DNA of 51,359 nucleotides from a virus (taxonomy: Duplodnaviria > Caudoviricetes): IMG/VR virus record IMGVR_UViG_3300049596_000773, positions 1-51,359 of that record; one strand, given 5' to 3'. Shown piece by piece: positions 1-20,303 of this stretch. Each line of letters starts with the position of its first letter. Position 1 is the first letter of the stretch. The translations under genes and the position numbers were made by a program. Under the pieces are notes generated by a model, which saw only the letters and a list, made by a program, of their open reading frames with translations, was not told the DNA's origin and searched no databases.

Positions 1-127
1 AGAAAAGGCTCGCTCACTGGCGAAAGAACGCGGATTCCACTTCTGATCCATGCCGGACATCTTCGATACGCTCGAAGCTCCGCCAAAGGGTGATGTCTTC
101 GATCAAATTGCCCCCGAATCCAAGGGC
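1..127. repeat. Terminal direct repeat identical to 51233-51359 (circular assembly overlap)
   Basis: The first 127 nt match the last 127 nt. The length equals a common assembler k-mer, and the ORF ending at 51278 joins the ORF starting at 50 across the junction. Confidence 0.97.
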
Positions 128-6100: not shown

Positions 6101-6568
6101 GTTGGGCAGATGTTCAGTGATGACGACGTTGACACCACTAACCCTACATCCAGCGACTTCGGCAAGATCGTTCGCGGCAACACGCGCATTGATCCGTGGG
6201 GAGGACATCAACAAGTTGCAGTTTTTGCTGCCAGAGCAATTACAGGAAAAACCACTTCCATAACCGGCAATGAGAGGGAAAACAACCTTGGCGATGTGAT
6301 TGCGAATTTCGGCAGAAACAAACTGCGACCGGACTGGGGAGCACTTTGGAACGCTTACGAAATTTACCACGACAAGCAAAGACCCGGAAGGCCGCAAACC
6401 TACTCAGAGGTTGTTGCGTCCATGTACACGCCCATGTCACTGCGCGATATTGCCGAGGTAATGCGCGACCGGGGCATGAGCGAAGGAGCGATTATCGAGG
6501 CTCTGGCCATGTTTGGCGCTGGCGTTGCTGTGTATGGCGACGAGGATGAGGCAAAGGCACGCCGATGA
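50..6568 (+). CDS. Giant (2172 aa) probable internal virion / DNA-ejection protein
   Basis: Very long Ala/Lys/Glu-rich helical ORF with three N-terminal D(I/V)FD repeats. On the circular map it follows two other low-complexity virion-type ORFs. Function is inferred from size and context. Confidence 0.65.
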   Translation: MPDIFDTLEAPPKGDVFDQIAPESKGDIFDSLAPEAVDADALAAVDEYLAASSNVTPKTSLPELITPAQPVAGPNIEGAGYVEKPLQFTAPETALGQLAKGNIPGAVGTAVGTAAGAVRESLTPILGPTEERIAAESVPWGTNPDGSVKYEYKPMADLMTRKGIFATPEMFDLAPIPPDPNDPAWEAALKAGTNQAAAFAKFGMSPGGVLMTAMGGAGALANAAKGLAPAGLGAESAGAAQIASTLAKTGKGAAGFFAVDMAAAAPEQFEQAFNAPTLQGKIEGWIGAVSSLGFSALATKHALGKPLTPAESGKVESVAEIVKGAPDAVLEAVAQPRNNFDVYSQAIAQNELIRRFKEQQAALAPEATAAAEVAATTLPSGKAGPPDPVATAAGAVKTAEAAAAAGKPFAPNIEGPITEAQYGRTLDAFDVTARMKRKPSSPAPSGTPTPEQPPSVAGALSPEPTRTEPSPVATPAAAVPEAKAAEPTQQQYDAMVAADRVKNLKRLKEERKDLISQYGNQGEKHPLGRMIGGLNPAAVKLQSIRGQIAQLERLIGETKPEKPVMTPISGTNARREMGLLYDVKFGERTGKIGKSNLGKWYAVENGEIVTQDFRTAAEARDAWAKAATPTPTPAPSPAPAAQAAVPKLREGQKQGDLLGGSEDLTLVGERVRSEAPKPKGPEPTVQQTISDALDAYGDLPSAWEHLDNQVKSLENNKANKAAITRLNAAKRKIENTLEEEARRAEVEQVDAFNTGLYELESSIKELGGIATTTGKGKGSGGELSRIAEARKGALLKLFRKNAPSHDTLREGLEERGFQFSTPDEMFMALEDSMRSGKKLYGSQFPEGYTGGPGAMGPVEAAYQAASRRILGGYNAEVEAAQIRRGQVPTVSEARKEDPVTFENAMDAIEKNPALPEKLVDDILKKEKKSITDEEQQMLTYRRAELENKMAAESERAIDPSLTPEQQAVHQTNAEVFEAQLLRAEEANRMAGTASGRALRSRQMQMNDDYTYAGLMMRERRATGDVVPKERAAELKKTAEEYKKAQAEVDLERETRQKRDEDAVMEAVVVEMERELEAAAKTGATYHPSVMQHAKEIVERAKGEAADAWKRIRSQMGSESGAVGGIGGPKGEGNYLGKPTKQQIAAKNRATLINDVALILKARVYEFGVKMAEAAQYVLLKSGDMGDSIRPILARAVAKANTMMERELNTRPQKVKEAVKTGATAPEKQPKAKPTPESYIDKGKASVVAGDDPLYRKEIGEAIDGGNVTVETHKLMSSARKLVYDIVVAHWENGVRGTDALMDAALKTVQEFLPDATLRDIHRAYGEYGKVKFPNKDALSMQLSAAYRETKLMEDIARMEKDDKDALRRGFTPAKPNLRQRELASKRAELQKLRQGEPSPEKLAGIQQARQTALKNRMEVLDKMLKTGEKPPKGRKVPDDVFTEQLKSEKQAMQDLWNEIEAAKNPPPPEHIVELARLQDRADILRDRLARMELTQPKAEGKPTVDTAEIAAAKAEIKQLSDTMAELRKPVPLSDAQKALDSALIARERAGQTLDDISTGKVKDPAKIKEALTQLEEDVRLETDALKALAAEMRRDAKPKSDPGYLKEQAQIKALERAIASYAEKVAKGDLAGKGKVQGPDSRRVAQLKAIRDSRRAAYQAARNAGKPVLSPEQRWNATRLKALTKREADFREKIRTGQYARPPKRVPPKMDQATQDAQIRVDAIKQKFLKEQFDYYQKQRATSKKIVDGIGQTLRAGINIVSSTDLSGFRQGMGATMIAFGKTVFPVDVRRGVSGKTQVVLTNPLKSAMMILKPTARMIVAGISEQKARRMEKARENRPNAKSGAYDAMGIDQTTLDTKVRSKHEEMMYSVLDEWAQLPIRTGSTGKTIITAPGKVAAKVVHASNRAFNTLLNEMRLDLADALLAENFRDRAPSPAELKVLGNLVNISTGRGNINPTLARGAGFVFWAPSLFASRVKGLTMEPIWSIKQPFKGTGRARAAIAKDYARVIISGYLLWKVGQMFSDDDVDTTNPTSSDFGKIVRGNTRIDPWGGHQQVAVFAARAITGKTTSITGNERENNLGDVIANFGRNKLRPDWGALWNAYEIYHDKQRPGRPQTYSEVVASMYTPMSLRDIAEVMRDRGMSEGAIIEALAMFGAGVAVYGDEDEAKARR

Positions 6569-8391
6569 CCGCCAAAACCAAACCAGCGCAGCGCATCAGC
6601 TACGACAACTTTGCGCTGCCGCCCGGTTATGAGCCGTGGCATCTGTGCCTGACCAAGTTCGGACTCGGCAAAGGCGAGGAAAAGCTGAAATGGTTCAAGC
6701 GTCTCGTCACTGAGCTTTGGCCGGAACCGCTTTTCATGTGGGACCGTTGGAGCGACCTGTTCTTTGGCGCGCTGTGCGGGGCGAAGGAAACCGTGGAGCG
6801 CACCATCGGCACGACGTTTGAAGCGGATTATGCGTGGTGGGAGCAACTGACAAGCACCGGGGCGGCGGGAACGGGCAAAAGCTCAAGGGCTGCGCTGTGG
6901 ATTCTCTGCAACTGGCTGTGCGCCCGCGAGCACACGACCTGCATGCTGACCTCAACCAGCGTCACCGCGCTCAAGCAGCGTATCTGGAGCGAACTGGTGG
7001 ATTGGATACAGAAGTGCAAGCAACCGTTGTCCGACCCGACGATTGGCTGGCTGCAAATCGTGCCGTCCGACACCATCATCCGGTGGAGCGGTGAGGACAC
7101 GAAAAGCGCCATCTTCGGGCGTGCCGTCGATCAGGGCGGTTCCGTGGATAACGCCGTGGGCCGCATCAAGGGTATTCACAACCGGCGCGTGTTTGTCGTC
7201 ACGGACGAAATGACGGCCATGCCCGAGGCGATTGCCAAGGCGTGCCGCAACCTGGACTCAGGCACGATGGAATTTCAGTTCATCGGGCTGGGGAACGCCA
7301 CCGATTACTCAGACCAGCACGGCATCTACTGCGAGCCGGTGAACGGCTGGAATAGCGTCACGGTGAATGACGAGTTTTGGCTGACCAAACTCGGCGGCTG
7401 TTGCGTGCATCTGGACGGGCACAAGTCGCCGTCGCTGGATGATCCGGCCAAGTTCCATTTCTACATCGGGCGCAAGAAGCTGGAAAAGGACGCACGATTC
7501 TTTGGCGGCGAGAACACGCCGGATTACTGGCGTGAGTGCCGGGGCTTTTGGGCACCGTCCGGCCTGTCCACGACGGTCATGGATGCGTTTCTGCTTTCGC
7601 AGTTCAACACCGCCGACAAAGCTGTGTGGAAGGCGCGATGGGAGATGGGCGCGGGCTTCGACGTGGCGTTTGAAGGCGGGGACCGGCGCGTGCTTTACCC
7701 GTTCAAGTTCGGAGAGTTTGCCAGCGGCGTGACGGGCATCGAGTTTCAAGCGCCGGTCATCGTGAACATCGACATGACTCAGGACAAACGCTTCATCCAC
7801 TACGGCATTGCCGCTGCCGTGGAGGAAACGTGCCGGAACTACAAGATCAACGGCCAGTCGCATCCCATCCCGCCGCGCAACCTGGCGTGCGACGTGACCG
7901 GCGAAGGCGCGGGACCGTTTGGCATCATGTCGGGAAGCTGGTCGCGCGACATCATCCCTGTGGAGTTCGGTGGCGCGGCGGAAAAGACGGCGGTATCCAC
8001 GGACAGGCCGACGACGTGGCACGAGCTTTACGGGAACAAAGTGACGGAAATCTGGTATTCAATGCGCCGGTTTATCGAGGGCGGACAGGTGCGCGGGCTG
8101 ACCGACGCCGACACGATCCGCGAGTTGACTTCCCGCGACTACATCCGCAAGGGCAACAAGACGCATGTGCTGCCAAAAAGCGAAATGAAGAAGCTCAAGG
8201 CGCGCAGCCCCGATTTGGCAGATGCGGCCTGCATAGCCGCCTTTGTGCTTCGCAAGAAAGGCATCATGCCGGCGGGCGTGGCGGACAATGTGGTGGTGGA
8301 TGCGACAGCATGGAACACGGCGGCAGAAAAGATGAATATGGAAGGGGATGAATCGGATTACGAAGATTCGACCGCAGCTTTTGCGATATGA
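6565..8391 (+). CDS. terL: Terminase large subunit
   Basis: Walker A GAAGTGKS, Walker B VFVVTDE, coupling motif FIGLGN, nuclease acidic motifs FDVAFEGGD and SPDLADA. Confidence 0.92.
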   Translation: MTAKTKPAQRISYDNFALPPGYEPWHLCLTKFGLGKGEEKLKWFKRLVTELWPEPLFMWDRWSDLFFGALCGAKETVERTIGTTFEADYAWWEQLTSTGAAGTGKSSRAALWILCNWLCAREHTTCMLTSTSVTALKQRIWSELVDWIQKCKQPLSDPTIGWLQIVPSDTIIRWSGEDTKSAIFGRAVDQGGSVDNAVGRIKGIHNRRVFVVTDEMTAMPEAIAKACRNLDSGTMEFQFIGLGNATDYSDQHGIYCEPVNGWNSVTVNDEFWLTKLGGCCVHLDGHKSPSLDDPAKFHFYIGRKKLEKDARFFGGENTPDYWRECRGFWAPSGLSTTVMDAFLLSQFNTADKAVWKARWEMGAGFDVAFEGGDRRVLYPFKFGEFASGVTGIEFQAPVIVNIDMTQDKRFIHYGIAAAVEETCRNYKINGQSHPIPPRNLACDVTGEGAGPFGIMSGSWSRDIIPVEFGGAAEKTAVSTDRPTTWHELYGNKVTEIWYSMRRFIEGGQVRGLTDADTIRELTSRDYIRKGNKTHVLPKSEMKKLKARSPDLADAACIAAFVLRKKGIMPAGVADNVVVDATAWNTAAEKMNMEGDESDYEDSTAAFAI

Positions 8392-9057: not shown

Positions 9058-11418
9058 ATGACAAACCAAGCTCCTCCAGACGGGAAACTTGCTGACTTAA
9101 CCAAGTCAGGGGAGCCGATTAAATCGCGCGTCTCAGACCCGAAGCACGCGCTGAAAATCTGTCAGCGATTCGTTAATGACGACCGGCTAAGGGCTGCTCG
9201 TCGCGCCAAAGTGCAAGGCGCATTTGACGGCAACGCCCCAAAGGCGCAAGGCGATCTTATCAAGGCCGGACGCGGAAATGACTCCAACTTAAACTTCAAG
9301 CGGCATCGCGGAAACATTATGAACGCGTGGACACCGTTCTTCGATATGGTGTGCGAGGTTCCGCTCTGCATTGACGGCGATCTGGACTACGGCGACGCGG
9401 CTCAGGACGCGGAATTGATGCGCGGGTTTGCCGAGTATTTTCACAGCATGGTTTTCAACTGGCGCGGGTTTGACGATATGAGCCAGCTTTGCGACCTGCA
9501 AATGCTTCTCCACGGTCCCGGCGTGCTGGCGTGGGAGGATTCGCTGGATTGGCGTCCGAAGGCGATTCTGGCGGGGAACATATACTTTCCAGACGGCACC
9601 GAGCTTTCCTTGGACAACTGCGAAATGGCGATGGTCTTTACGCCCATGAGCGCCGGCCAACTCTGGCGCAAGATTGAGAACGAAAAGGCCGCAACGGCAG
9701 CGGGATGGAATGTCGAGGCGGTGAAGCAGGTCATCATGGACAGCGCCACCAACGGCAGCGAAGCCTACGGATGGAATCGCGAGTGGCAGCGGTGGAATCA
9801 GGCGTTTAAGAACGGCGACATCTACGTGACGCAAACGCAGACGAAACGCATCCAGCTTTCCACGTTGTTTGTCGAGGAAATGGACGGAACGATTTCGCAG
9901 AAGATCGTCCCCGCAAAAGAGGGGCAGGCAAATTTCGATTTCATCTTTGACAGCCAAAGCCGGTATGAGGGCTGGGACCAGTGCATCTGTCTGTTTCCCT
10001 ACGACATTGGGGCCGATGGAACGTATCATTCCATCAAAGGACTTGGCACCGACATTTATCCTTTCTGCGCGTTGCTGAATCAGATTGACAACAGCATTGC
10101 TGACCTTGTGGTAACAGGCATCAAGCCGATGTGGCAACCGACCACGAACGCCAAGTTGGAAGACTTCAAGATGGTCAAATGGGGTGGCGGCAACTTCATC
10201 CCGAACGGAATCAACCCGCTCCAGTTGAACATGAGTCAGGGGATCAATCCGGCGCTGGAAGTGTCTGCGGCGTTCACGCAAACGTTAATCCAGAACACCG
10301 CAGCATCCAACCAGAATGACTTGGCCGCGCCGACCGTGGAGGAAACCGCCAAGGGCGCGATGATTCGCGCCGCTGAGCGCGCGAAGGTTTCCAAGGGACT
10401 GCACAACCGATACATGCGATGCAAAGACCGGCAGTATTCGGAGATGTGGCGTCGGGCGACAAACCCTGATTTGAAGCCTTGGCATTCTGGCGCAAAAGAG
10501 GCGCTAAAGTTTCAGGAACGGTGCTACAAACTTTGCGACAAGCTGGGAGTGGAGCATAAAGCGTTGCAGGCTGTGACAGGCATCCGCGCCAATCGTTCGC
10601 TGGGGCTTGGCAGCGCAGCCATGCGAATTGAAATCGTCAATCAGTTGATGGCGAACATAGACCGCTTTGATGAGGTGGGGCAGAACGAAATCAAACGCCA
10701 GTTCGTTTCGGTGATGACGAGCTTCCACAGCGTTGACGCCATTGTTCCAAGTCTCACAACCGGACGGGACGCCACTAACGATGCGGCACTTGCGGCGCAG
10801 GAAGACAATGGCTTCTCGATGCTTGGCGAAGAGGCGGAGGCGATGGTTGTGCCGGGACAAAATCACGTCATTCATCTGGAGGTTCACATTCCGTCTATGC
10901 AGAAAGATATGGCGATGTGCCAAGCCGGAGAGCAGGCACCGGAAGAGTGCGACAAACGATTGGAGGCGAAAGGCAAACACGCGGGAGAACATCTTGCCAA
11001 GCTCGCTGGAAATCCTACGCGCAAACGCGAATACAAGCAGTTCAAGATGGCGTTGGATGAGATGGCTGCGTTCAAGGATCAACTTGAAGCCATGCTGGAA
11101 CAGCAGGCAGAAGACGCGCCTCCGCCGCCTGACCAGCCGACGCCTGAGATGGCGAAGGTGCAGGGCAATCTGGCGATCAAAGCCGAGAAAGAGCAGGCTA
11201 CGATGCAACTGCGCGAGCAGAAGCAAGCGTTCGATCAGCAGATGAAGCTGCAACAAGCGCAATTCGATGCTATTTTAGCCAAGGCGAAGCAGGATGCTAA
11301 AATCGCAATGGAAGACGCTGATACGGCAGCATCCATCAACCGTTCCACGGCAGAGAGTCGCGCCTATACAGCGATGGACATGGAAAAGGCAGCAACCGAA
11401 AAAACCGATGAGAAATGA
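9058..11418 (+). CDS. Portal protein (probable)
   Basis: About 786 aa, located downstream of terL and upstream of scaffold/capsid, with a long Q/E/A-rich C-terminal coiled coil typical of podovirus portals. ATG 9058 follows the promoter motif. Confidence 0.75.
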   Translation: MTNQAPPDGKLADLTKSGEPIKSRVSDPKHALKICQRFVNDDRLRAARRAKVQGAFDGNAPKAQGDLIKAGRGNDSNLNFKRHRGNIMNAWTPFFDMVCEVPLCIDGDLDYGDAAQDAELMRGFAEYFHSMVFNWRGFDDMSQLCDLQMLLHGPGVLAWEDSLDWRPKAILAGNIYFPDGTELSLDNCEMAMVFTPMSAGQLWRKIENEKAATAAGWNVEAVKQVIMDSATNGSEAYGWNREWQRWNQAFKNGDIYVTQTQTKRIQLSTLFVEEMDGTISQKIVPAKEGQANFDFIFDSQSRYEGWDQCICLFPYDIGADGTYHSIKGLGTDIYPFCALLNQIDNSIADLVVTGIKPMWQPTTNAKLEDFKMVKWGGGNFIPNGINPLQLNMSQGINPALEVSAAFTQTLIQNTAASNQNDLAAPTVEETAKGAMIRAAERAKVSKGLHNRYMRCKDRQYSEMWRRATNPDLKPWHSGAKEALKFQERCYKLCDKLGVEHKALQAVTGIRANRSLGLGSAAMRIEIVNQLMANIDRFDEVGQNEIKRQFVSVMTSFHSVDAIVPSLTTGRDATNDAALAAQEDNGFSMLGEEAEAMVVPGQNHVIHLEVHIPSMQKDMAMCQAGEQAPEECDKRLEAKGKHAGEHLAKLAGNPTRKREYKQFKMALDEMAAFKDQLEAMLEQQAEDAPPPPDQPTPEMAKVQGNLAIKAEKEQATMQLREQKQAFDQQMKLQQAQFDAILAKAKQDAKIAMEDADTAASINRSTAESRAYTAMDMEKAATEKTDEK

Positions 11419-11690: not shown

Positions 11691-12853
11691 GCACCACCAT
11701 CGCGGAAGCACCGCCAGCCGAAAACAAGCCAAGCCCGTTTCATGCGGCGCTGGAAAATGCGTTCAAGGGAGACGACGCGCCACCTGTCGAAACCAAACCG
11801 GAAGCAGTCGCCAAGCCTGCCGAGGCTGCTAAGGAAAGCTCTAAGTCGGTTCCTGACACACTGTTCAAGAAGCCGGACGCCGACGCGAAGCCGCCCGAAG
11901 AAGCGCCGCCAGCCAAAGCTGCTGCGGATGAAATCGCCGAGCCGCCAAAGCTGGACGCCAAGGGCAAGGCAGGGTGGGAGGCGTTGAAGAAAACGGCGCG
12001 AGAAGAGGCGACCAAGCGGGCGGAACTTGAGAAGCAAATAGAGGAGTGGAAATCCAAAGGCCGCGATCCTGAGACGCTGGAAAAGCAGCTTGCCGAGCGC
12101 GACAAGAAGCTGTCTGAATACGAGACTAAGGTGGCGCGGGTTGACCTGGAATCGAGCGAGAGTTTCCAGCGCGAAATCGTAGAACCGCGCAACCGCGAGA
12201 TGCAACGCGCCAAAGCATTTGCCGAAGAAATCGACGCAAACCCGGAGGAACTGACTGCGGCACTGTCACTGACCGGAAAGGCGCGGGCCAACGCGCTGCG
12301 CGATCTGGCGCTTGACCTTGACCCGGTGCAAAGCGGTCGGCTTGGCCGCATCATTGAGAAGATGGACGAGTTGCATGAGCGCGCCGAGTCGGAGCGGGCC
12401 AATGCCAAGACGTATTTGGAACAGCGCACGGAACGCGAGCGTCTGGACAAGCTGGCCGAGCATGGCGAGTTCGTAAAAACCAAGTTCTTGCAATTCGAGG
12501 ACACGACCAAGCGGCTCAAGGCGCGGCTGGAAATCCTAAACCAAGTGGACGGTCACGAAGATTGGAACACCAAGTCAAAGGCCGTTGTGGAAAGCGCCCG
12601 CGCTTACATTCAGGAAAATCCCTACGCCGATGTGGAGGCGGTGATTGAGGCGAAGGCCATGCCGGTTTATCGTGAACTGTTTCTGGAAACTCGCGAACGC
12701 GAGGCGGCACTGGAATCAAAGGTTGCTGAAATGGAGAAGGAACTGAAAGCGATTCATGGACGTTCACCGTCTCTGACGCAGCGCGGGGCAGCGGCAGAAG
12801 TTGGCAACAAGAAGCCGTTTAGCTCCATGATTGCGGAGGCGTTCGGGCAATGA
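11687..12853 (+). CDS. Capsid scaffolding protein (probable)
   Basis: P/A/E/K-rich N-terminus and charged coiled coil; lies between portal and capsid. Confidence 0.7.
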   Translation: MSTTIAEAPPAENKPSPFHAALENAFKGDDAPPVETKPEAVAKPAEAAKESSKSVPDTLFKKPDADAKPPEEAPPAKAAADEIAEPPKLDAKGKAGWEALKKTAREEATKRAELEKQIEEWKSKGRDPETLEKQLAERDKKLSEYETKVARVDLESSESFQREIVEPRNREMQRAKAFAEEIDANPEELTAALSLTGKARANALRDLALDLDPVQSGRLGRIIEKMDELHERAESERANAKTYLEQRTERERLDKLAEHGEFVKTKFLQFEDTTKRLKARLEILNQVDGHEDWNTKSKAVVESARAYIQENPYADVEAVIEAKAMPVYRELFLETREREAALESKVAEMEKELKAIHGRSPSLTQRGAAAEVGNKKPFSSMIAEAFGQ

Positions 12854-12862
12854 ATACTAACG

Positions 12863-12939
12863 ACATACCGACCCCAAGCTCAGCGACTGCGGAGGCGAGT
12901 CCGCGAGCCGAAGCAGTTCGCTGGAGCGCATGGTTGGGC
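12863..12939 (-). mobile_element. attC-like site (attC-a)
   Basis: Minus strand reads GCCCAAC-catgc-GCTCCAGCGAAC...GTCGCTGAGC-ttggggtc-GGTATGT: R'', bulged L boxes and a variant R'. Confidence 0.75.
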
Positions 12940-12954
12940 GACGTTGGATTGCGG

Positions 12955-13284
12955 CTAGAATCCGTCATCTGTAAAAGTGTCTGGAGGATCGCTTTTGTCC
13001 GCAAAGTCGTTCCATCGCTGCTTATCATTATTCGCCTGCGCTTCCTTGAACTTCGCATGTTCTTGTTGAAGCTCCAGATGTGTTGCGAGCAGCGCCGAAT
13101 TGCGAAGTTCTGCCGTCTCAAGGCTGATAACGAGCGATTCATTTCTAGCCTTCAATTCGGAAAAAGACCTGTCAAACGCAGCGGCTTGGTCACGTATGCT
13201 GATAACTTTCGGTTTCCATTCTGAAACAGATGCGCCGCTGGTGAATATACCATCAAGAAAATCAATTAGGTCTGCGGATGTCAT
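12955..13284 (-). CDS. Gene-cassette-borne hypothetical coiled-coil protein (109 aa)
   Basis: The only antisense gene inside the head operon; bracketed by two attC-like sites, with its stop codon 15 nt before R''. Confidence 0.7.
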   Translation of the reverse strand: MTSADLIDFLDGIFTSGASVSEWKPKVISIRDQAAAFDRSFSELKARNESLVISLETAELRNSALLATHLELQQEHAKFKEAQANNDKQRWNDFADKSDPPDTFTDDGF

Positions 13285-13322
13285 AATATGAATAAATCGA
13301 ACGAGATGCAGGGTGCTCAGTC

Positions 13323-13390
13323 GCCTAAAAAACAAGCTCAGCGAATGGCGAAGCGAAGCGGAGCCGGTTCGCTGGAGCGTGCTGGTATGT
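13323..13390 (-). mobile_element. attC-like site (attC-b), degenerate R' (TTTAGGC)
   Basis: Minus strand reads ACATACC-agcac-GCTCCAGCGAAC...TTCGCTGAGC-ttgttt-TTTAGGC. Confidence 0.7.
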
Positions 13391-13403
13391 CTGGAGGAAA
13401 GCC

Positions 13404-14318
13404 GTGATTCTCGTCATTGCGTTCTGCCAGAAAGACAAGGCGACAACCGTTCGTCTTGCCAACTGGATTGCAGAATTAGGTGGCACGTCCCGGCATGATC
13501 TGCTGCTAGCATTTCACGAAGACACCACGCCGGACCCGATTCACGAAATCCTCAAACCGCACTTCAACCACGTCGGCGGATTCAAGATTAGCGACTCGGA
13601 GACGACTTACCCGGCCATTGCCAATATCATGTGGCATGAGTGCGTGAAGACCGTTGCTGACCAGTTCAATGTTCCGTGGTTCTGGATGGAACCGGATGCC
13701 GTGCCGCTGGTGCCGGAGTGGTTGGACAAGATCGAGGACGAATACCTTGCGGCCAAGAAGCCGTTCATGCTGGACAAGGTGATTACGCCTACGCGCTCGC
13801 ACAATAGCGGCGTGGGAGTGTATCCAGGCAGGGTGCGAGACTACACCATTCGCCTGTGGGAGCTTTCAAACATCCCGTGGGACGTATTCTTGGCGGAGGA
13901 GTTCACGCCGTTCACGCATCATACCGCGCTGATTCACGACAAGTTCTATCGGGTGTGGGAAGACCCGAACAGCGGTCCTCCGATTTTTCCTGACGCAGCA
14001 TCGCTGTCCATCATTGAACCGGGTGCCGTGCTTTTCCATCGTAACAAGGACGGCAGCCTAATGGATCGTCTGCGCGAATCGCGGGGTGGTGTAATCGCAG
14101 CACAGCCGCACTCATCGGCGGTAGGAGCTTGTTCAAGTCAAGCCCCCGCAACTGTGGACACGGATGCACTGCTGCGGAGAATCGCGGAACTAGAAGAAAA
14201 GCTGAAATTACAAACTGTAACAACTTCGGTTACAGAAGGAAAAAAACAGCGCACGCTGGAACAGATTCAGGCCGCAAAGGACAGGATGGCGAAGGCGCGT
14301 GCCGGGAGGAAGAAGTGA
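13404..14318 (+). CDS. Putative GT-A-fold glycosyltransferase-like protein
   Basis: WFWMEPDAVPL (ExD metal motif after a hydrophobic strand), SGVGVYP, PWD and a late FH motif. Confidence 0.55.
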   Translation: MILVIAFCQKDKATTVRLANWIAELGGTSRHDLLLAFHEDTTPDPIHEILKPHFNHVGGFKISDSETTYPAIANIMWHECVKTVADQFNVPWFWMEPDAVPLVPEWLDKIEDEYLAAKKPFMLDKVITPTRSHNSGVGVYPGRVRDYTIRLWELSNIPWDVFLAEEFTPFTHHTALIHDKFYRVWEDPNSGPPIFPDAASLSIIEPGAVLFHRNKDGSLMDRLRESRGGVIAAQPHSSAVGACSSQAPATVDTDALLRRIAELEEKLKLQTVTTSVTEGKKQRTLEQIQAAKDRMAKARAGRKK

Positions 14319-15004
14319 ACTGCGACATCTTCATTCGCAGCTACGAAAAGGATTTCGAGTGGTTGAAATACTGCCTTCGTTCCATTCAGAGATTCGCCAC
14401 CGGATTCAGGAACGTAATTGTGGTGGTGCCGAATGGACAAACGCCACCGACCGGGCCAGTCGAAAAGGTGTTCTTTGTGCATGAAGGATGCGACGGATAC
14501 ATGCACCAGCAACTTACCAAGCTGCACGCGGACTGCTTTTCGGACGCTGACGTGTTTCTCTGCATGGATAGCGATACGATATTCACTCGGCCAATCTCGG
14601 CTGGAGATGCGTTTGCGCCGTGGCTTTACACGCCATACGCCAGCCTGAACGATCCGAACACGATGACATGGCGGAAGGTGGTGGAAAAAGCCATTGGGGT
14701 ACTGCCGGACTACGAGTTCATGCGGCGGCATCCACTGAGCGTTCAGCGATGGATGCTGCACGGATTACGCGAGTTCTTCTGGCAAAAGCACGGCATGAGC
14801 TTGGAAAGCTACATCATCGCGCAGCCGGGACATGAGTTCAGCGAATGGAACGTCATCGGCGCTTGGCTGTGGTATTTTCATCGGAGCAAAGTCCAGTGGC
14901 AGAATACGGATGAGAAATTGGGTGTTCCGTTCGTGCATCAGTCGTATTCGTGGGGCGGACTCAACGATGACATTCGCAAGAACATGGAGGCGGCGCTGGT
15001 ATGA
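14315..15004 (+). CDS. Putative glycosyltransferase (GT-A; DUF6492-like)
   Basis: IFIRSYEKDFEWLKYCLRSI start, QQLTKL, CMDSD (DxD) and FSEWN motifs; GTG start overlaps the upstream TGA. Confidence 0.6.
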   Translation: MNCDIFIRSYEKDFEWLKYCLRSIQRFATGFRNVIVVVPNGQTPPTGPVEKVFFVHEGCDGYMHQQLTKLHADCFSDADVFLCMDSDTIFTRPISAGDAFAPWLYTPYASLNDPNTMTWRKVVEKAIGVLPDYEFMRRHPLSVQRWMLHGLREFFWQKHGMSLESYIIAQPGHEFSEWNVIGAWLWYFHRSKVQWQNTDEKLGVPFVHQSYSWGGLNDDIRKNMEAALV

Positions 15005-15756
15005 TTTACACCTTCGACACAAAGCGGTCGCAACTGCGGGAGGGATTCTATCAGACCGGCAGCGGGCCGCGTCGCGTGCTGATTGTCGGCTCCTGTCGCA
15101 CGATGGCGTTCCTGAACTATCTCGCAACGTGGAACGAGATGAGCGGAAACGGACTGACAATCCGTTACATCAACCCGTTTGACTGGCACTGGAACTCAGT
15201 GGACGAACTGGTGGATTTGGAAAAGGCAATTGACGCTCTGGAAATCAACAGCGGAATCCTTTCCGTGATAGGAGACACCGAGATATTCATTCACGAACAC
15301 TACGGAAACTACGGGATGTTCAATACCTCGCGTGAGGCATCCAAGAATATCTACCAGTTCGGGATGAAAGCGGAAACCGACATCAGCATCCCAAACTTTC
15401 ACGATCATTTCATTCTCTACAACGATTTCGCGGCGTTCGGCGAAGTGCCGGAAGATTGGAAGGAGCGTGGATTGGCAGCGGTGGAAAAGTTTTGCGACCT
15501 CTGCGCTAAAACCAGCTTCCCTGAGATGGCTGATTACTTCCGAAACAACTGGCGGCATACGCGCCTGTTCTGGACTCCAAATCATACCGGCGCGCTGTTC
15601 ACGCTTTACCTATTCCGGCAGATGAATGACAAGTTTTTGCATTTTTCTATGGAAAACGAGTTCTGGCAGCAGATTTGCGGTGACGATATGTTCCGCGATC
15701 CACATACTCCAGTCCATCCAAAGGACATCGAAGCCTACGGCCTAACCTGGAATTAA
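15001..15756 (+). CDS. WcbI-like polysaccharide modification (acyltransferase-type) protein
   Basis: LIVGSC near the N-terminus and LFWTPNH near the C-terminus resemble the WcbI-family GNC / LFxTxNH motifs. Confidence 0.45.
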   Translation: MIYTFDTKRSQLREGFYQTGSGPRRVLIVGSCRTMAFLNYLATWNEMSGNGLTIRYINPFDWHWNSVDELVDLEKAIDALEINSGILSVIGDTEIFIHEHYGNYGMFNTSREASKNIYQFGMKAETDISIPNFHDHFILYNDFAAFGEVPEDWKERGLAAVEKFCDLCAKTSFPEMADYFRNNWRHTRLFWTPNHTGALFTLYLFRQMNDKFLHFSMENEFWQQICGDDMFRDPHTPVHPKDIEAYGLTWN

Positions 15757-15760
15757 CATC

Positions 15761-16249
15761 ATGATTGAAACGCTAAATTGGGGGAGTCATCTTCCGGCGC
15801 TTATGGCCTGCGCGGCAGTATGCGAAGGTCCTGTTTTGGAAATTGGATGCGGACACTTCTCAACGCCATGCCTTCACGCAATTTGTTCGGCGCTAAATCT
15901 TCCGCTGGTCACAACTGAATTGGACGATAGCTGGAGAGAACAGTTCACAAGCTATTCCACACACGGACACCAAGTTCTTAAACAAACAGACGCTCTGTTG
16001 CAGGAACTAGCAAAGCAGCAATGGGGATTGGTTTTGGTAGATGACCAAGCGGATACGCGAGTTGACCGACTTAATTTGTTCTTCGATTCCGCTCGGTTTG
16101 TTTTGTTTCACGACGCTAATTTCCCTGAATACAAACAAATTTTGGATGGATGGATCGCGGGTCGCGGATGCTTCAACCGAACTTATACGCGTTACGGCCC
16201 ATTTACTTTAGTCGTATCCAAAACCCATCCAATTCCTGAGTTTGGATAG
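15761..16249 (+). CDS. Class I SAM-dependent methyltransferase-like protein
   Basis: VLEIGCGHFST motif I, LVLVD and VLFHD. Confidence 0.65.
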   Translation: MIETLNWGSHLPALMACAAVCEGPVLEIGCGHFSTPCLHAICSALNLPLVTTELDDSWREQFTSYSTHGHQVLKQTDALLQELAKQQWGLVLVDDQADTRVDRLNLFFDSARFVLFHDANFPEYKQILDGWIAGRGCFNRTYTRYGPFTLVVSKTHPIPEFG

Positions 16250-16252
16250 GCC

Positions 16253-17008
16253 ATGAAAATTGACCGAATAATGCTGGTTTGGGATGGAAACCCATTTTAT
16301 GAGGGTTTTTACGAAATGCACCAGCGTATTTGGGCAAAGCTCGGCATTGAAACGGCCTTGGTATTTGTTGCAAATGGAGAAAACGAACATTTGATCCCGT
16401 CCACCGGGGATGTTCGCGTTCTTTACGACAAGAGCAAAGTTCCGTTCACCCCGCCACCCGGACGCAACTGGAAAGCGACAATGGCAATTATTCATGGGCC
16501 GCGCCTGTTTCCGGGAGAGGTAATTAGGGTTTGTGGAATGGATCAATTTCCCGCCAGCCGACAATTTACTGACGCAGTGGACAAGGTGCCTTATGACGAA
16601 TTAGCAACATCCATCGGAGACATTACCCACGTTCCGACTGGCAGTATTGTTGCTCACCACGATGTATGGACTCGCATAATGAATCCGGCTCCAATGGATT
16701 TCACAGAGCTCATTGAATGGACGTGGGAGCGAAAGCCTGGCGCAAATTACGGATACGCAGAAACCTCTATTGGCTGGGGAAATGATGAGGTGACATTTGC
16801 TAATTTAATGCAGCAATGCCAAGGGCTGAAAGTGCGAACCCTTTTTCGTGACTGCTGGACAGATTGGCTGGATCGCACACTTGGTATTACGCAGATTGCA
16901 CCCGACGATCAATTATTGAAAGAAGGGTACTACACCGAACTTCATGTTCGCCAACCATTGTCGGATTGTGACAAAAAAACATTCGAGAGGCTGGTTGAAA
17001 TACTGTAA
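16253..17008 (+). CDS. Hypothetical protein, possibly glycosyltransferase-like
   Basis: Intact 251-aa ORF within the glycan cluster; MDQFP and WGNDE motifs; AT-richer than its neighbours. Confidence 0.45.
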   Translation: MKIDRIMLVWDGNPFYEGFYEMHQRIWAKLGIETALVFVANGENEHLIPSTGDVRVLYDKSKVPFTPPPGRNWKATMAIIHGPRLFPGEVIRVCGMDQFPASRQFTDAVDKVPYDELATSIGDITHVPTGSIVAHHDVWTRIMNPAPMDFTELIEWTWERKPGANYGYAETSIGWGNDEVTFANLMQQCQGLKVRTLFRDCWTDWLDRTLGITQIAPDDQLLKEGYYTELHVRQPLSDCDKKTFERLVEIL

Positions 17009-17060: not shown

Positions 17061-17215
17061 AACCTGTTCAGAGGTTCTATTCAGCCGTGCTCCTCCGGTA
17101 AAACTTGGGCTGTATCACAGGGATTGGCCCGCCTGAAACCAAAACGTGCGCCTGCTATCGGCGGGGATTTCGCACGGTTTCACGTCCACACACGCAGTTT
17201 TACCTACCTACTCTC

Positions 17216-18466
17216 ATGGCCTGTCCCAATCCGTTTTCAGCAATCCAAATCGCGACCGAGTATCTCGGCAGAGAAATTTACGGCATCCCCACTCCGGCGA
17301 CGCCTTACTTCAACTTCGTCGAACGCGGCGTGTTCCCCAAGAACGCGGGCGTTACGATGTCCACATTCATCGCCGGTCGCGTCGAACCTGACAGCAAATC
17401 CGCTGGCTGGTCTGCCGTCACTCTTGACGGCGCTGGTTCCGGCACTACCGGGCCGACCATCACTGGCGGCATATGCGCGGACAGCTTTACTGCTGTTCCG
17501 GTCGGCTTCGACACGCTGCAATACTCGCCCCGCAAGCTCCAGCTTCAAGGGCCGTCCATCTGCCGCGACACGCTCACCTTCGCGCATCAGCCGACCAAGT
17601 TCATTCAGCAGCACTACATCCCGTCGCTTGCCCACTACGTGAAGCGTAAGATCGACTTGGAGTTCCGCGACCAGATCATCAAGTTCTCGAACAAGATGTC
17701 CCTCGCTGCGGGCGGTTTCTCCAATGTCGTCACCGCCACCACTAACCCGACCGTGAAGCCGACTTCGCAGTTGAACTGGACTTGGTTGGACGGCGTTGCT
17801 GTTCGCCTAATCGGCGATGGCGCGGCCAACTCGGACGGCGACGTGATTGAGATGGGGCCGGACGGTCCAGTGTTCCCTGCCTTCATCGGCCTGGAGGCGC
17901 TGAATCGCCTGTTTATGAACGGACCCGCTTCCGCTCCTACCGCCTTCCGTCAGGACTTCCAGTATGCCGACATGGGCAAGGGCGCAATGGCCGAAACCAT
18001 GAAGGCAATCGGCGCTTCCCGGCAGATCAAGAACTTCCGGTTCGCTCCAGTCACGAATCCGCCTCGGTTCACTTGGAACAACCAAACTCTCGTCGAGGTC
18101 GAGCAGTTCGAGTTCACGGACGCCACGCACGGTCAGAAGTCCGTGGAAACTAGCGCGTATCAAAACGCGGAATACGAAGCCATCGTCATCCCGCATCGTC
18201 GCCAGTTCAAGGCGGACATCCTAACACCGGACAACGCCGGACTCGACTTCGATCCAGGCATGTGGACTGGCGACTGGAAGTTCGTCACGGGCGGAGAGCG
18301 CATCGTATCGAACAACGTGTGCTTCGACCCGCTGCACAAGTGGGGAGCGCACTTCGCCGAGTTCTACTACGCGCCGGAACCGATCCACACCAACTACGGC
18401 TGGGTGCTGTTCTACAAGCGTTGCCAGAACGATCAAGCCGTGACGGTCTGCACGAGCGGCCTGTAA
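17216..18466 (+). CDS. Major capsid protein (probable)
   Basis: 416 aa with strong C-ending codon bias, its own promoter and a terminator; position downstream of the scaffold gene. Confidence 0.75.
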   Translation: MACPNPFSAIQIATEYLGREIYGIPTPATPYFNFVERGVFPKNAGVTMSTFIAGRVEPDSKSAGWSAVTLDGAGSGTTGPTITGGICADSFTAVPVGFDTLQYSPRKLQLQGPSICRDTLTFAHQPTKFIQQHYIPSLAHYVKRKIDLEFRDQIIKFSNKMSLAAGGFSNVVTATTNPTVKPTSQLNWTWLDGVAVRLIGDGAANSDGDVIEMGPDGPVFPAFIGLEALNRLFMNGPASAPTAFRQDFQYADMGKGAMAETMKAIGASRQIKNFRFAPVTNPPRFTWNNQTLVEVEQFEFTDATHGQKSVETSAYQNAEYEAIVIPHRRQFKADILTPDNAGLDFDPGMWTGDWKFVTGGERIVSNNVCFDPLHKWGAHFAEFYYAPEPIHTNYGWVLFYKRCQNDQAVTVCTSGL

Positions 18467-18486
18467 GCAACCCGCAACCATCAACC

Positions 18487-18518
18487 GGGCGGTCCTGAGC
18501 AATCGGGACCGCCCTTTT
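18487..18518 (+). terminator. Rho-independent terminator
   Basis: GGGCGGTCCTGA-GCAA-TCGGGACCGCCC followed by TTTT, directly after the capsid stop. Confidence 0.85.
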
Positions 18519-18530
18519 GGGTGAAAACCT

Positions 18531-20303
18531 ATGGCGACCATCACCGTAACGACGTTCTGGAACATGGATTCGCGGAAGTGGACGAGCGACCTGCTTGGCA
18601 CCACGGAGCAAGGACCGTTGGCCGGCCTCGTCCAGGGTGACATCGTGAAGTTCGCCGTGCGGTTCGTGCAAGGCGGCGTAGCGGTGGCGCTGACTGCCCC
18701 GGTCTTCACCGCATCTGGCATAAAGGCGTTGAACGACTTCACCGGCGGCTACCTCATCCAGCTTTCCGCGCCTGTCCTGAGCGACACCACGCTCTATACT
18801 TTCACCGTCTCGCCGCTTAACAGCGCGCAACTGAACACGTTTTTGCAGACGTATCGGAATACGTGGTGTGCGCTGGAACTTTACGACAGCGCCAACGGCA
18901 TACTCACGACTCCATTGGAACTGCAAATCACGCCGGGATACAGCCTGAGCGGGACGCCGACGGACAATGTGGATGGCGTAATTGTCGTCGCCGCTGGCAA
19001 GACCGTAACATTCCCGCTCTCGCTCACGTTCCCGAGCGCGGCGGGGACGAATGGCTACAAGCTGACCACCGACGGCGCAACAACGCTGAGTTGGACGGCT
19101 GACAATGCTGGGGCACCCGGAGGCAGTAACACACAGGTTCAATACAACAACAACGGCGCTTTTGGAGGCTATGCCATCAGCGGCACCGGCAGCGTGGCGA
19201 TGACGACAAGCCCGAGTTTCACCACGCCGAGCTTGGGCGCGGCCACGGCGACGAGCATCAATGGTATCACGATCACAGGCTCGGGCACGCTCACGATGGA
19301 GGGCAGCATCAACACCAGCGTCAACGGCGGATATATCAACACTGGTGGCAACGGAAGTGCTTTTGGTGGCAACATTGACACTTCTAGTGATATAGGAAAC
19401 CAAGCTGGCGGCTCCATTAACACCAGCGGCGGCAGCAGCGGAGCAGGCGGCAGCATAAACACCAGCAACGGTGGCGGAAACATTGACACCACGGCAGGCG
19501 GCAGCATCATCACCGGAGCAGGCGCACTGACTGGCCCAGCCGGCGGCGGCACCATCGCGCTGACTAGCGACATCACCGGCGGCACGCTGGCGGGGAGCTT
19601 CACCACGCTGGCGGTCAACGGGAAAAGCCTGACGCTCGGCGCAAACTTAACCACCAGCGGCACCGACCTCCCGACGTTCGCTTTCCCATCGGCGGCAACG
19701 GCGCGCACCTACACCTTCCCGACGACCACTGCGACGCTGGCGCGCACCGATGCGGCGCAGACGCTCACCGCGACGCAAACCATCTCCGAATCAACGGACA
19801 GGAACGGAGCTGCAGCAGGGGCATCACTGACCATTAGCGGGGCGGCATCCGTAGGGCCAGCCTTTAAGATGTCCACCACTGCGGCAGGCACGTTTAGTGT
19901 ATTTGTCCATGCCACAAACGGGCATACATACGTCGGCACAGCATCGGGTTCGCTTATTGTGACGAGCGGAGTCAACAGCAGTGGATCAACCATGTTCTCG
20001 GTCACAAGTGGCGGCGCTTTTTCCATACCTGGCACGCTCGCCGTCACCGGAGCCACCACGCTGACCGGACTGCTTACGGCCAATGGCGGAATCACACTTG
20101 GAGACGCGCAGAACATCGCGGTCAACACCACGACCGGCACGAAGATTGGCACGGCTACCACGCAGAAGATCGGATTCTGGAATGTCACTCCAGTAGTGCA
20201 ACCAGCCGCCGTGGCGGACAGTAGCGGCGTGCTGATGGACCTGACCACGCAATTCAACGCACTACTCGCCAGACTCCGATCCGCCGGAATAATCGCCACC
20301 TAA
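18531..20303 (+). CDS. Tail fibre / receptor-binding protein
   Basis: Gly/Thr/Ser-rich, with repeated GGxI(N/D)T units, an NTQVQYN motif and the C-terminal NALLARLRSAGII typical of phage fibres. Confidence 0.75.
   Translation: MATITVTTFWNMDSRKWTSDLLGTTEQGPLAGLVQGDIVKFAVRFVQGGVAVALTAPVFTASGIKALNDFTGGYLIQLSAPVLSDTTLYTFTVSPLNSAQLNTFLQTYRNTWCALELYDSANGILTTPLELQITPGYSLSGTPTDNVDGVIVVAAGKTVTFPLSLTFPSAAGTNGYKLTTDGATTLSWTADNAGAPGGSNTQVQYNNNGAFGGYAISGTGSVAMTTSPSFTTPSLGAATATSINGITITGSGTLTMEGSINTSVNGGYINTGGNGSAFGGNIDTSSDIGNQAGGSINTSGGSSGAGGSINTSNGGGNIDTTAGGSIITGAGALTGPAGGGTIALTSDITGGTLAGSFTTLAVNGKSLTLGANLTTSGTDLPTFAFPSAATARTYTFPTTTATLARTDAAQTLTATQTISESTDRNGAAAGASLTISGAASVGPAFKMSTTAAGTFSVFVHATNGHTYVGTASGSLIVTSGVNSSGSTMFSVTSGGAFSIPGTLAVTGATTLTGLLTANGGITLGDAQNIAVNTTTGTKIGTATTQKIGFWNVTPVVQPAAVADSSGVLMDLTTQFNALLARLRSAGIIAT

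What the first reader, a model, noticed from the sequence alone, without database searches (positions are those of the whole stretch)
12862..13391. Conventional cassette captured in a solo, self-complementary attC within the head operon
Seen: an antisense 109-aa gene sits between attC-b and attC-a in normal cassette orientation, and its ends pair (GTTGGGCGAC / GTCGCCTAAA, 8/10). The outer ends, GACATACC (12862) and GGTATGTC (13384), are perfect complements, so removing the cassette leaves one attC with matching arms, as in a free circular cassette. Inference: a host integron cassette was inserted here. More speculatively, this attC could let the integrase-less phage circle integrate into a host integron. 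The altered core (TTTAGGC) may now lock the cassette in place.
Basis: partly seen in the sequence, partly recalled or inferred. Interest (0 to 1): 0.75.

Follow-up and report, generated by a model that had tools for sequence, protein, structure and literature searches.

The report
Integron cassette array in lake phage
A lake-water phage with no integrase carries a small gene flanked by two bacterial-type integron recombination sites, and its close relatives have none, a different one or two such cassettes at the same spot, so phages can carry and apparently swap integron cassettes.

Summary
The repeats are attC-type sites. Outside the pattern I searched with, they match attC sites of bacterial cassette arrays, mostly Verrucomicrobiota; 5 of 9 such genomes tested encode an integron integrase. 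ORF orientation matches a bacterial array.

The whole 554-bp block is an insertion. In 10 of 13 close relatives the two flanking genes overlap directly, with no attC. Three have other contents: a different cassette, a deletion remnant, and (metagenome contig L153) two cassettes with three attC sites, the middle one canonical. Empty and filled alleles coexist in two lake metagenomes. One contig leaves the window sequence exactly at the predicted G|TT cassette boundary.

The outer boxes are non-canonical but pair perfectly through three compensated changes. This fits a former solo attC, but no solo allele was found.

No tyrosine or serine recombinase is encoded, and no prophage form was found.

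Best reading: a phage-borne attC cluster without integrase (CALIN), loaded by a host integrase. CALINs in virulent phages are published (Qi et al. 2023), so this is a new member of a known kind. The natural allele series is the new angle.

The parts
12850..12853 (+). ATGA overlap. TGA (12851-12853) stops the 388-aa upstream gene. ATG (12850-12852) is the relic of the original overlapping start of the 304-aa gene; it now opens a probably spurious 124-aa + strand frame across the cassette.
   Evidence: The empty alleles read GGGCAATGATTCTCGTC.
12854..13407 (.). 554-bp insertion relative to the empty allele. The placement is ambiguous by 3 bases, so 12851-13404 is equivalent.
   Evidence: 10 of 13 relatives have 0 bp here; contigs in X15 and X19 join 12850 to 13405 ('skips 554', 3 letters fit on either side).
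12862..12942 (-). attC-b, the cassette's own attC (top strand = minus strand). On the + strand: outer box GACATACC 12862-12869, L box AAGCTCAGCGA 12876-12886, loop, L box TCGCTGGAGCG 12918-12928 with a bulged G, spacer CATG, core GTTGGGC 12933-12939, GAC 12940-12942.
   Evidence: Homology to bacterial attC sites.
12869..13328 (-). The cassette as delimited by the standard G|TTRRRY crossover model: TTAGGC, 5' leader, ORF, attC-b up to the first base of its R' box.
   Evidence: Inference from the junction sequences. The 13328 end coincides with the point where an X22 contig leaves the window sequence.
12958..13287 (-). 109-aa ORF (stop 12955-12957). A predicted coiled-coil protein of unknown function.
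   Evidence: Relatives: a 70%-identical 109-aa protein without indels and two further ones at 43%. No Pfam, PHROG or PADLOC family.
13288..13322 (-). 5' leader of the cassette gene. It is shared with two other, unrelated cassette ORFs in relatives. The start context TTCATATTATGA (13281-13292) runs from the leader's last nine bases into the ATG.
   Evidence: The start motif has no other exact match in the window: besides the exact minus-strand match, one overlapping plus-strand match with 2 mismatches at the same place; two or more matches arose in 26 of 100 shuffles.
13320..13391 (-). attC-a, the body of the inferred landing attC. On the + strand: GTCGCCTAAA 13320-13329, L box 13334-13344, loop, L box 13369-13379, outer box GGTATGTC 13384-13391.
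13393..13406 (+). GGAGGA (13393-13398) plus the GTG start (13404-13406). They came in with the insertion and restart translation of the 304-aa downstream gene.
   Evidence: Conserved in the window, L017, L022 and L153.

Best explanation
The locus is a small integron cassette array without an integrase (a CALIN). It sits between the scaffold-like gene and the next gene of a 51-kb phage that has direct terminal repeats and no recombinase.

Shown:
- The two repeats are homologous, box by box, to attC sites of bacterial cassette arrays, chiefly Verrucomicrobiota.
- The 109-aa gene lies in the normal cassette orientation.
- The whole block is absent from most close relatives.
- In other relatives it holds a different cassette, two cassettes or a deletion remnant.
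- Filled and empty alleles coexist in the same lakes.

Inferred:
- An ancestor of these phages acquired one attC-like hairpin with unusual but perfectly paired outer boxes, together with a ribosome-binding site for the downstream gene.
- During infection of hosts that express an integron integrase, the folded bottom strand of this site recombined with circular cassettes at the usual position, after the first base of the R' box. This split the site into today's outer halves.
- Later events added or exchanged cassettes, and homologous recombination between co-infecting phages spread both filled and empty alleles.
- The cassette gene would be transcribed against the late operon from its own conserved leader. 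Its function is unknown.
For: (1) attC identity.
By my reading of the flanks, 15 matches in 14 loci are hairpins flanked by RYYYAAC/GTTRRRY-type boxes.
- Of the 12 of those loci that carry names, 8 are Verrucomicrobiota.
- The likeness extends beyond the pattern: GCCYAAC-CATG-C on one side and the GCATGGTTAGGC spacing on the other.
- The long loop of L153 attC-2 is also homologous to bacterial sites, at 74% over 119 nt in G165 and 87% and 95% for the two arms in G304.
- 20 of 401 Verrucomicrobiota genomes matched (best E 2e-15), against 8 of 401 Pseudomonadota, all weak (best E 1.5e-4).
- An integron integrase above the TIGR02249 cut-off is present in 5 of the 9 genomes tested that hold such sites.

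(2) Orientation. In the bacterial array L091 the ORFs lie on the strand opposite to the AGCTCAGCGA..TCGCTGGAGC reading, as in the window.

(3) Allele series.
- 10 of 13 relatives are empty; L022 has a different cassette; L017 is a remnant.
- L153 has three attC sites and two cassettes. Its middle site has a perfect GTCGCCTAAC/GTTAGGCGAC pair and a compensated L-box change.
- The four cassette ORFs are unrelated to each other.

(4) Junction logic.
- The outer boxes ACATACC/GGTATGT differ from GCCTAAC/GTTAGGC at three positions, and all three are compensated.
- A computed rejoined site folds as one hairpin with a 7-bp terminal stem, dG -16.2, z -4.4.

(5) Natural populations.
- Contigs with the exact 554-bp skip (depth 24 and 32) coexist with the filled allele (depth 3.9 and 6.6) in X15 and X19.
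- In X22 one contig shares the cassette up to 13328 and then continues for 203 unlike letters. Its first letter restores a canonical GCCTAAC.
- P0001, which is 99% identical, has an N-terminal extension that reads L-S-F-Y-V-R-R where the window reads L-S-L-F-F-R-R. This fits a different upstream attC with a G at the crossover; it is a back-translation inference.

(6) Foreign composition and no recombinase in the phage.
Against: - No solo-attC allele was found among the window, 13 relatives, L005, L153 and L154, nor in four runs.
- The outer boxes lack the AAC/GTT triplets. As I recall the integron literature, these are the main sequence requirement for integrase cleavage, so the first insertion would have been inefficient or not integrase-made.
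- The site also does not fit the GWT core of genomic secondary sites.
- Three different ORFs share the same 5' leader and nearly the same attC-b. Gene replacement by homologous recombination between conserved flanks would produce the same picture.
- That leader was not found in the 401 Verrucomicrobiota genomes searched; no match reached query positions 137-181.
- The 109-aa family was not found in those genomes, where 4 of 401 gave only chance-level matches, nor in about 1 Mb of fetched bacterial loci.
- The second context of the cassette rests on one Logan contig and one protein record.
- The host is inferred from attC likeness only.
- No integrase activity was or could be tested here.
Confidence: 0.68

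Rival explanations
1. Captured relic. A stretch of a host cassette array (attC, cassette, attC) entered the phage once by illegitimate recombination, like any moron. The attC sites are inert in the phage. All later variation (other cassettes, two cassettes, empty alleles) comes from homologous recombination with host arrays or between phages, and from deletions.
For: - Different ORFs share the leader and attC-b, which would serve as homology arms.
- L017 is a plain internal deletion of an L153-like array, not at attC cores.
- Filled and empty alleles are scattered over the flank-gene trees: the window is sister to the empty L012/L013, and L017 is nested among near-identical empty loci. This needs homologous exchange in any case.
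- The outer boxes lack AAC/GTT.
Against: - In a piece copied from an array, the outer boxes belong to two different neighbouring cassettes. They have no reason to be perfect complements of each other through three non-consensus, compensated positions.
- The junctions fit the canonical crossover position.
- The X22 contig diverges exactly at that position.
Confidence: 0.24
2. Phage-own regulatory hairpins. The repeats are terminator, attenuator or leader-peptide elements of the phage that merely resemble attC sites, and they flank a hypervariable moron slot.
For: - The first repeat starts at an ATG overlapping the upstream stop, and it is in frame with + strand ORFs in L022 and L153 (a Zn-ribbon-like and a membrane-helix ORF).
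- Both repeats form hairpins.
Against: - That ATG is the relic start of the displaced 304-aa gene.
- Single-site folds are not better than shuffles, z -0.6 to -1.2.
- No terminator-like site was scored.
- The box-by-box and loop homology to bacterial array sites is far beyond convergence.
- Most relatives do without the elements.
Confidence: 0.04
3. Assembly chimera of phage and bacterial integron DNA.
For: The record is a metagenome assembly and the block has a lower GC than the genome.
Against: - The same 1.1-kb stretch is held at 0.8-1.0 of sampled words by 24 runs listed under 24 coded studies from 2016 to 2024. Of these, 9 may be the source, and studies of one year and habitat may belong to one campaign.
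- An independent contig, L154, is identical over 800 bp.
- Contigs bridge both junctions.
- Relatives carry the same junctions with other contents.
Confidence: 0.01

Closest known systems
CALINs (clusters of attC sites lacking an integron integrase) in phage genomes: Qi, Rajabal, Ghaly, Tetu and Gillings, Front Microbiol 2023, PMC9892861. I read the abstract, the outline and section 3.4.
   Same: Two or more attC sites with cassettes in a phage without intI, including virulent phages. The paper reports 17 phage CALINs, and 5 of 6 tested phage attC sites were recombined by IntI1 at G|TTRRRY.
   Different: - This is an uncultured lake phage with attC sites of a Verrucomicrobiota type.
- A natural allele series exists at one fixed site: empty, one cassette, another cassette, two cassettes, remnant.
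- The outer boxes are non-canonical and compensated.
- The terms 'closely related', 'single attC', 'solitary' and 'Verrucomicrob' do not occur in the paper's main text.
Sedentary chromosomal integron arrays, here those of Verrucomicrobiota genomes (for example G001:C69, G304:C253, G165:C42)
   Same: The same attC family: R'' GCCTAAC, spacer CATG, L boxes CGCTCCAGCGAA/TCGCTGAGCTTG with one bulged base, R' GTTRRRY. Short and long loop types occur within one array. Small ORFs lie on the top strand.
   Different: - No intI or attI in the phage.
- At most two cassettes.
- The first and last R boxes are non-canonical.
- The shared cassette leader was not found in the bacterial genomes searched.
Cassette insertion outside att sites (attG sites, isolated cassettes): Loot et al., bioRxiv 10.1101/2022.09.11.507474. 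I read the abstract, the outline and one results section.
   Same: The integrase can place cassettes at non-att sequences and excise them again, so a non-canonical target is not excluded.
   Different: - attG sites keep a GWT core and are recombined as double strands.
- Here the target is a folded attC-like hairpin whose crossover reads T|GT.
- An attG insertion leaves one attC, not two.
PeSL (promoter-early stem-loop) mobile cassettes of T4-type phages. This is recalled from memory and was not looked up.
   Same: Repeated stem-loops flank small, variable genes in phage genomes and are thought to mediate shuffling.
   Different: As I recall them, those elements are phage promoters plus terminators and work by homologous recombination. 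They have no homology to integron attC sites.

Membership tests
Integron attC recombination site | Inverse core boxes R'' (RYYYAAC) and R' (GTTRRRY) that pair with each other | tested here: inconclusive
   The inner boxes meet it or nearly so. On the top strand, attC-b has R'' GCCCAAC and attC-a has R' TTTAGGC, one base off. L153 attC-2 has both boxes canonical, with a 10-bp perfect pair. The outer boxes ACATACC/GGTATGT pair perfectly but lack AAC/GTT.
Integron attC recombination site | Imperfect inner inverted repeats (L'', L') with extrahelical base(s) that mark the recombinogenic bottom strand | tested here: met
   AAGCTCAGCGA pairs with TCGCTGGAGCG with one bulged G on the + strand. The same bulge occurs in 10 of 10 aligned bacterial sites. 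That a bulged G marks the bottom strand is recalled from the literature.
Integron attC recombination site | Sequence homology to sites of bona fide cassette arrays in genomes with IntI | tested here: met
   IntI is above the cut-off in 5 of 9 such genomes. In these fragmented assemblies the matched sites are mostly not on the IntI contig. G002 has attC-like hairpins about 1-1.3 kb from intI, but my finder is crude.
Integron attC recombination site | Cassette ORF upstream of its attC on the top strand | tested here: met
   The window ORF is on the minus strand, which is the top strand by comparison with array L091.
Integron attC recombination site | Recombined by an integron integrase at G|TT | not testable with these tools
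   Indirect evidence only: the junction words fit that crossover, and one contig diverges exactly there.
CALIN (cluster of attC sites lacking integrase) | At least two attC sites close together with no intI nearby | tested here: met
   Two sites lie 458 bp apart. TIGR02249, PF00589 and PF00239 are all absent from the complete record. I did not run IntegronFinder's own model.
Complete integron | intI gene, attI site and Pc promoter | tested here: not met
   No integrase of any kind. No sigma-70-like promoter was scored in 12400-13900.
attG / secondary-site cassette insertion | A single attC at one end, and a target with a GWT core | tested here: not met
   There are two attC bodies. The empty target reads CAATGA|TTCTCG, and the insert ends do not match a cassette joined to that target.

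The most novel reading that the evidence does not exclude
The phage keeps a working landing pad: an attC hairpin with its own non-canonical core. Host integron integrases load it with cassettes and swap them during lytic infection. That would make a virulent phage of lake Verrucomicrobiota a shuttle that samples the hosts' cassette pool and carries cassettes between cells. The same 109-aa cassette would then be circulating in at least two or three attC contexts in the same waters.
Probability: 0.4. Interest if true: 0.7.

Novelty: new member of a known kind. Interest (0 to 1): 0.55.

Why it matters
Integron components in phages were reported only recently, from isolated genomes. Whether cassettes actually move in and out of phage genomes in nature is open.

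This lineage offers a natural before-and-after series at one nucleotide-defined site. Empty and filled alleles coexist in the same lake samples. The filled allele was recovered in runs dated 2016 to 2024.

It gives concrete substrates for recombination assays: attC-a, attC-b and L153 attC-2. It gives a testable prediction about a non-canonical core. It gives a host lead (Verrucomicrobiota) for an otherwise unassignable phage. It also points to four small cassette genes worth testing for roles in phage-host conflict.

Tried and rejected
- Covariance model. I aligned 10 bacterial sites but did not build the model. The sites had been chosen with the phage's own L-box pattern, so a model score would have been circular.
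- My own crude attC finder (AAC/GTT pair plus fold) gave dozens of hits in any GC-rich DNA. I use it only for the two hairpins near G002 intI.
- A relaxed pattern with 3 mismatches in five genomes did no better than its reversed control.
- L152 was a chance hit in an unrelated AT-rich phage. L003, L004 and L009 were chance hits in coding DNA.
- Function of the 109-aa protein. Pfam gave only a sub-threshold coiled-coil match. PHROGs and PADLOC gave none. The ESM Atlas gave scores of 0.89 or lower with no family. A full phmmer search gave 5 proteins, 3 of them credible relatives. I predicted no structure, because a coiled coil would not have been informative.
- The other cassette ORFs had no Pfam or PADLOC family. 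The L022 ORF has one relative, at 90% identity.
- A family profile of the 109-aa protein found nothing credible in 401 Verrucomicrobiota genomes and nothing in viral contigs.
- The portal-like protein gave 1 distant match in 401 Verrucomicrobiota genomes. That is not enough for a prophage or a host claim.
- The start-context motif is not a general phage signal.
- Which strand codes in L153 cassette 2, and in the 3' parts of the L022 and L153 cassette 1 inserts, stays open.
- Not examined: Qi et al.'s methods section and supplements, so I cannot say whether this lineage is among their 21 phages.

Full report
**What is in the sequence.** The window is a complete 51,359-bp IMG/VR virus record with direct terminal repeats. 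At 12850-12853 the stop of a 388-aa ORF overlaps an ATG. At 13404 a 304-aa ORF starts with GTG behind a GGAGGA. Between them lie two about 75-nt direct repeats that share AAGCTCAGCGA ... GTTCGCTGGAGCG. The gapped pattern occurs twice in the window and never in 100 shuffles. Between the repeats, on the minus strand, is a 109-aa ORF (12958-13287). Upstream, only the large terminase is identified (phrog_2, E 1.3e-10). The 807-aa and 388-aa ORFs match no family, so 'head operon' is a reading by position.

**Are the repeats attC sites?** I scanned one genome per prokaryote species with the L-box pattern. Most matches lie in GC-rich coding DNA. By my reading of the flanks, 15 matches in 14 loci are hairpins with RYYYAAC and GTTRRRY-type boxes at the expected spacing. 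Twelve of these loci carry organism names, and 8 are Verrucomicrobiota. The others are labelled Planctomycetota, Limnocylindrales, Acetothermia and Bifidobacteriaceae.

The likeness goes beyond the 20 bases I searched with. Written on the top strand, the bacterial consensus is GCCTAAC-CATG-CGCTCCAGCGAA-loop-TCGCTGAGCTTG-spacer-GTTRRRY. Window attC-b reads GCCCAAC-CATG-CGCTCCAGCGAA-loop-TCGCTGAGCTTG-GGGTC-GGTATGT.

A BLAST search with the long-loop site of relative L153 found matches in 20 of 401 Verrucomicrobiota genomes. The best covered the loop as well: G165 at 74% over 119 nt, and G304 at 87% and 95% for the two arms. The same query in 401 Pseudomonadota genomes gave 8 weak, short matches, the best at E 1.5e-4. 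An integron integrase above the curated TIGR02249 cut-off is present in 5 of the 9 genomes tested that hold such sites. A sixth has a truncated copy.

In array L091 the cassette ORFs lie opposite to the AGCTCAGCGA..TCGCTGGAGC reading. The attC top strand in the window is therefore the minus strand, and the 109-aa ORF is in normal cassette orientation with attC-b as its own site.

**The block is an insertion, and the site is polymorphic.** The 304-aa protein retrieved 13 close relatives from IMG/VR. In 10 of them the upstream stop and the 304-aa start overlap directly (GGGCAATGATTCTCGTC), with no attC at all. L010/L011 are identical to each other, as are L012/L013.

- The window has 554 extra bases.
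- L022 has 681, with the same two attC sites but an unrelated 102-aa minus-strand ORF.
- L005 shows the same left end as L022 before its contig stops.
- L017 has 320 bases.
- A metagenome scan with the right junction found L154, which is identical to the window over 800 bp, and L153.
- L153 holds three attC sites and two cassettes. Its middle site is fully canonical, with a perfect GTCGCCTAAC ... GTTAGGCGAC pair and an L-box change compensated on both arms.
- L017 is an L153-like array with an internal deletion.
- The four minus-strand cassette ORFs are unrelated to each other.

In trees of both flanking genes the filled loci are scattered. The window is sister to the empty L012/L013, and L017 is nested among near-identical empty loci. 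Both alleles must therefore be exchanged by homologous recombination among these phages.

**Natural populations.** The 1.1-kb stretch is held at 0.8-1.0 of sampled words by 24 coded freshwater or lake runs dated 2016-2024, each under its own coded study. Nine may be the source, and studies of one year and habitat may be one campaign. Laying Logan contigs of four runs gave two results.

- In X15 and X19 a contig joins 12850 to 13405, skipping exactly 554 bases, at depth 24 and 32. Filled-allele contigs sit beside it at depth 3.9 and 6.6. The skipping contigs differ from the window at 8 of 551 and 18 of 592 flank positions.
- In X22 one contig matches the cassette up to 13328 and then continues for 203 unlike letters. 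Position 13328 is the predicted cassette boundary, and the first unlike letter turns GCCTAA-A into the canonical GCCTAA-C.
- Unitigs over 13202-13328 have higher depth than their neighbours, and two SNP variants of the ORF are present.
- These are contigs, not reads, and the X22 evidence is a single record.

A protein record, P0001 (99% identical, 131 aa), carries an N-terminal read-through. Just upstream of the shared leader it differs from the window: L-S-F-Y-V-R-R against L-S-L-F-F-R-R. By back-translation this fits another attC of the same family with a G at the crossover. Its DNA could not be fetched.

**The solo-attC idea.** The outer boxes ACATACC and GGTATGT differ from GCCTAAC and GTTAGGC at three positions each. 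The changes mirror one another, so all seven pairs are kept. In a piece copied from an array the two outer boxes would belong to different cassettes and would have no reason to match in this way. The pairing must therefore predate the split. A rejoined site computed in a script folds as one hairpin with a 7-bp terminal stem (dG -16.2, z -4.4), while attC-a as it stands has no terminal stem.

The junction words fit a crossover after the first base of R'. The landing site contributes T and the cassette TTAGGC on one side. The cassette contributes G and the landing site GTATGT on the other. L017 keeps TTTT-GTATTTC, which looks like an unrecombined 3' end. Complementarity of the outer words is 8/8 in the window and L022, 7/8 in L153 and 6/8 in L017.

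Against the idea:
- No solo allele was seen anywhere.
- The core lacks the AAC/GTT triplets, and it also does not fit the GWT core of genomic secondary sites.
- How the first hairpin entered, together with its ribosome-binding site, is unknown.

**What speaks for plain homologous exchange.** The window, L022 and L153 cassette 1 share about 45 nt of 5' leader, including the start context, and nearly the same attC-b plus 8 further bases. Only the ORFs differ. Such shared ends could be homology arms. The leader travels with the ORF rather than with the upstream attC: in L153 it follows attC-2. This fits cassette boundaries, but it does not exclude homologous replacement. The leader was not found in the Verrucomicrobiota genomes searched.

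**The phage and the cargo.** No integron integrase, other tyrosine recombinase or serine recombinase is encoded. The insert is GC-poor: 0.51, and 0.47 for the ORF, against 0.58 for the genome.

The 109-aa protein has a 70%-identical, equally long relative whose conserved core looks like a coiled coil. Two further relatives lie at 43%. It has no family, defence or phage annotation. Its family was not found in 401 Verrucomicrobiota genomes or in viral contigs.

No prophage form was found: only 1 distant portal match in 401 genomes. The idea that the phage circle integrates into a host integron therefore has no support here.

**Comparison with what is known.** Qi et al. [quoted passage not shown] They showed that IntI1 recombines 5 of 6 tested phage attC sites at G|TTRRRY. 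The kind is therefore known. This case adds three things: an uncultured lake lineage with Verrucomicrobiota-type sites, a nucleotide-defined allele series in nature, and a non-canonical, compensated landing site. Loot et al. (bioRxiv 10.1101/2022.09.11.507474; I read the abstract, the outline and one results section) show that integrases can use non-att targets, but with features not met here. Two literature searches turned up no report on phage cassette polymorphism or on Verrucomicrobiota phage CALINs. Supplements were closed.

**Verdict.** The core interpretation (an integron cassette between attC sites in an integrase-less phage) is well supported. The solo-attC ancestor is a reasoned inference. 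The locking and phage-integration ideas are unsupported.

Noticed in passing
window 13404-17008: Five consecutive + strand ORFs lie between the scaffold-like gene and the 453-aa ORF at 17105-18466. They give only sub-threshold matches to sugar-modifying families: Stealth CR2 and DUF6492 for 14129-15004, and WcbI for 15001-15756. This may be a glycan-modification module inside the structural region.
   Followed up: partly
window 50-6568: A single 2,172-aa ORF opens the genome, directly before the large terminase gene (6565-8391). It was not analysed.
   Followed up: no
L006 12405-12505 and about 300 bp upstream (IMG/VR contig of 13,087 bp): An unrelated viral contig has an attC-like site of the same family with a perfect GGCCGAAC/GTTCGGCC pair. 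Its loop holds GGGAGGAGCC plus ATG, the ribosome site and start of the next + strand gene. A second, similar unit lies upstream.
   Followed up: partly
L005 (reverse complement) about 9270-9320; L022 3320-3335: The left junction carries tandem copies of the 9-nt unit ATGAACACA (translated MNT): five in L005 and one in L022. This is a microsatellite expansion at the relic start codon.
   Followed up: no
L022 3320-3784 (+); L153 reverse complement 1312-1626 (+) and 1784-2245 (+): Plus-strand ORFs start at the relic ATG, read through attC-b and continue into protein-like sequence: a Zn-ribbon-like CxxC motif pair, a membrane helix and a Cys/Trp-rich segment. Some cassettes may hold a second, convergent gene, or the attC may be translated as a leader.
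   Followed up: partly
window 18424-18560 and 35994-36095: Two strong hairpins: dG about -64 to -67 after the 453-aa ORF, and about -50 to -56 at 35994-36107. My crude scan picked them up. They are probably terminators and have no attC L boxes.
   Followed up: no
G359:C25:117177-119357 (L167): One Verrucomicrobiota genome encodes a 775-aa ORF that is 22% identical to the window's 807-aa portal-like protein (E 8.7e-20). It may be a distant prophage or phage contig.
   Followed up: no
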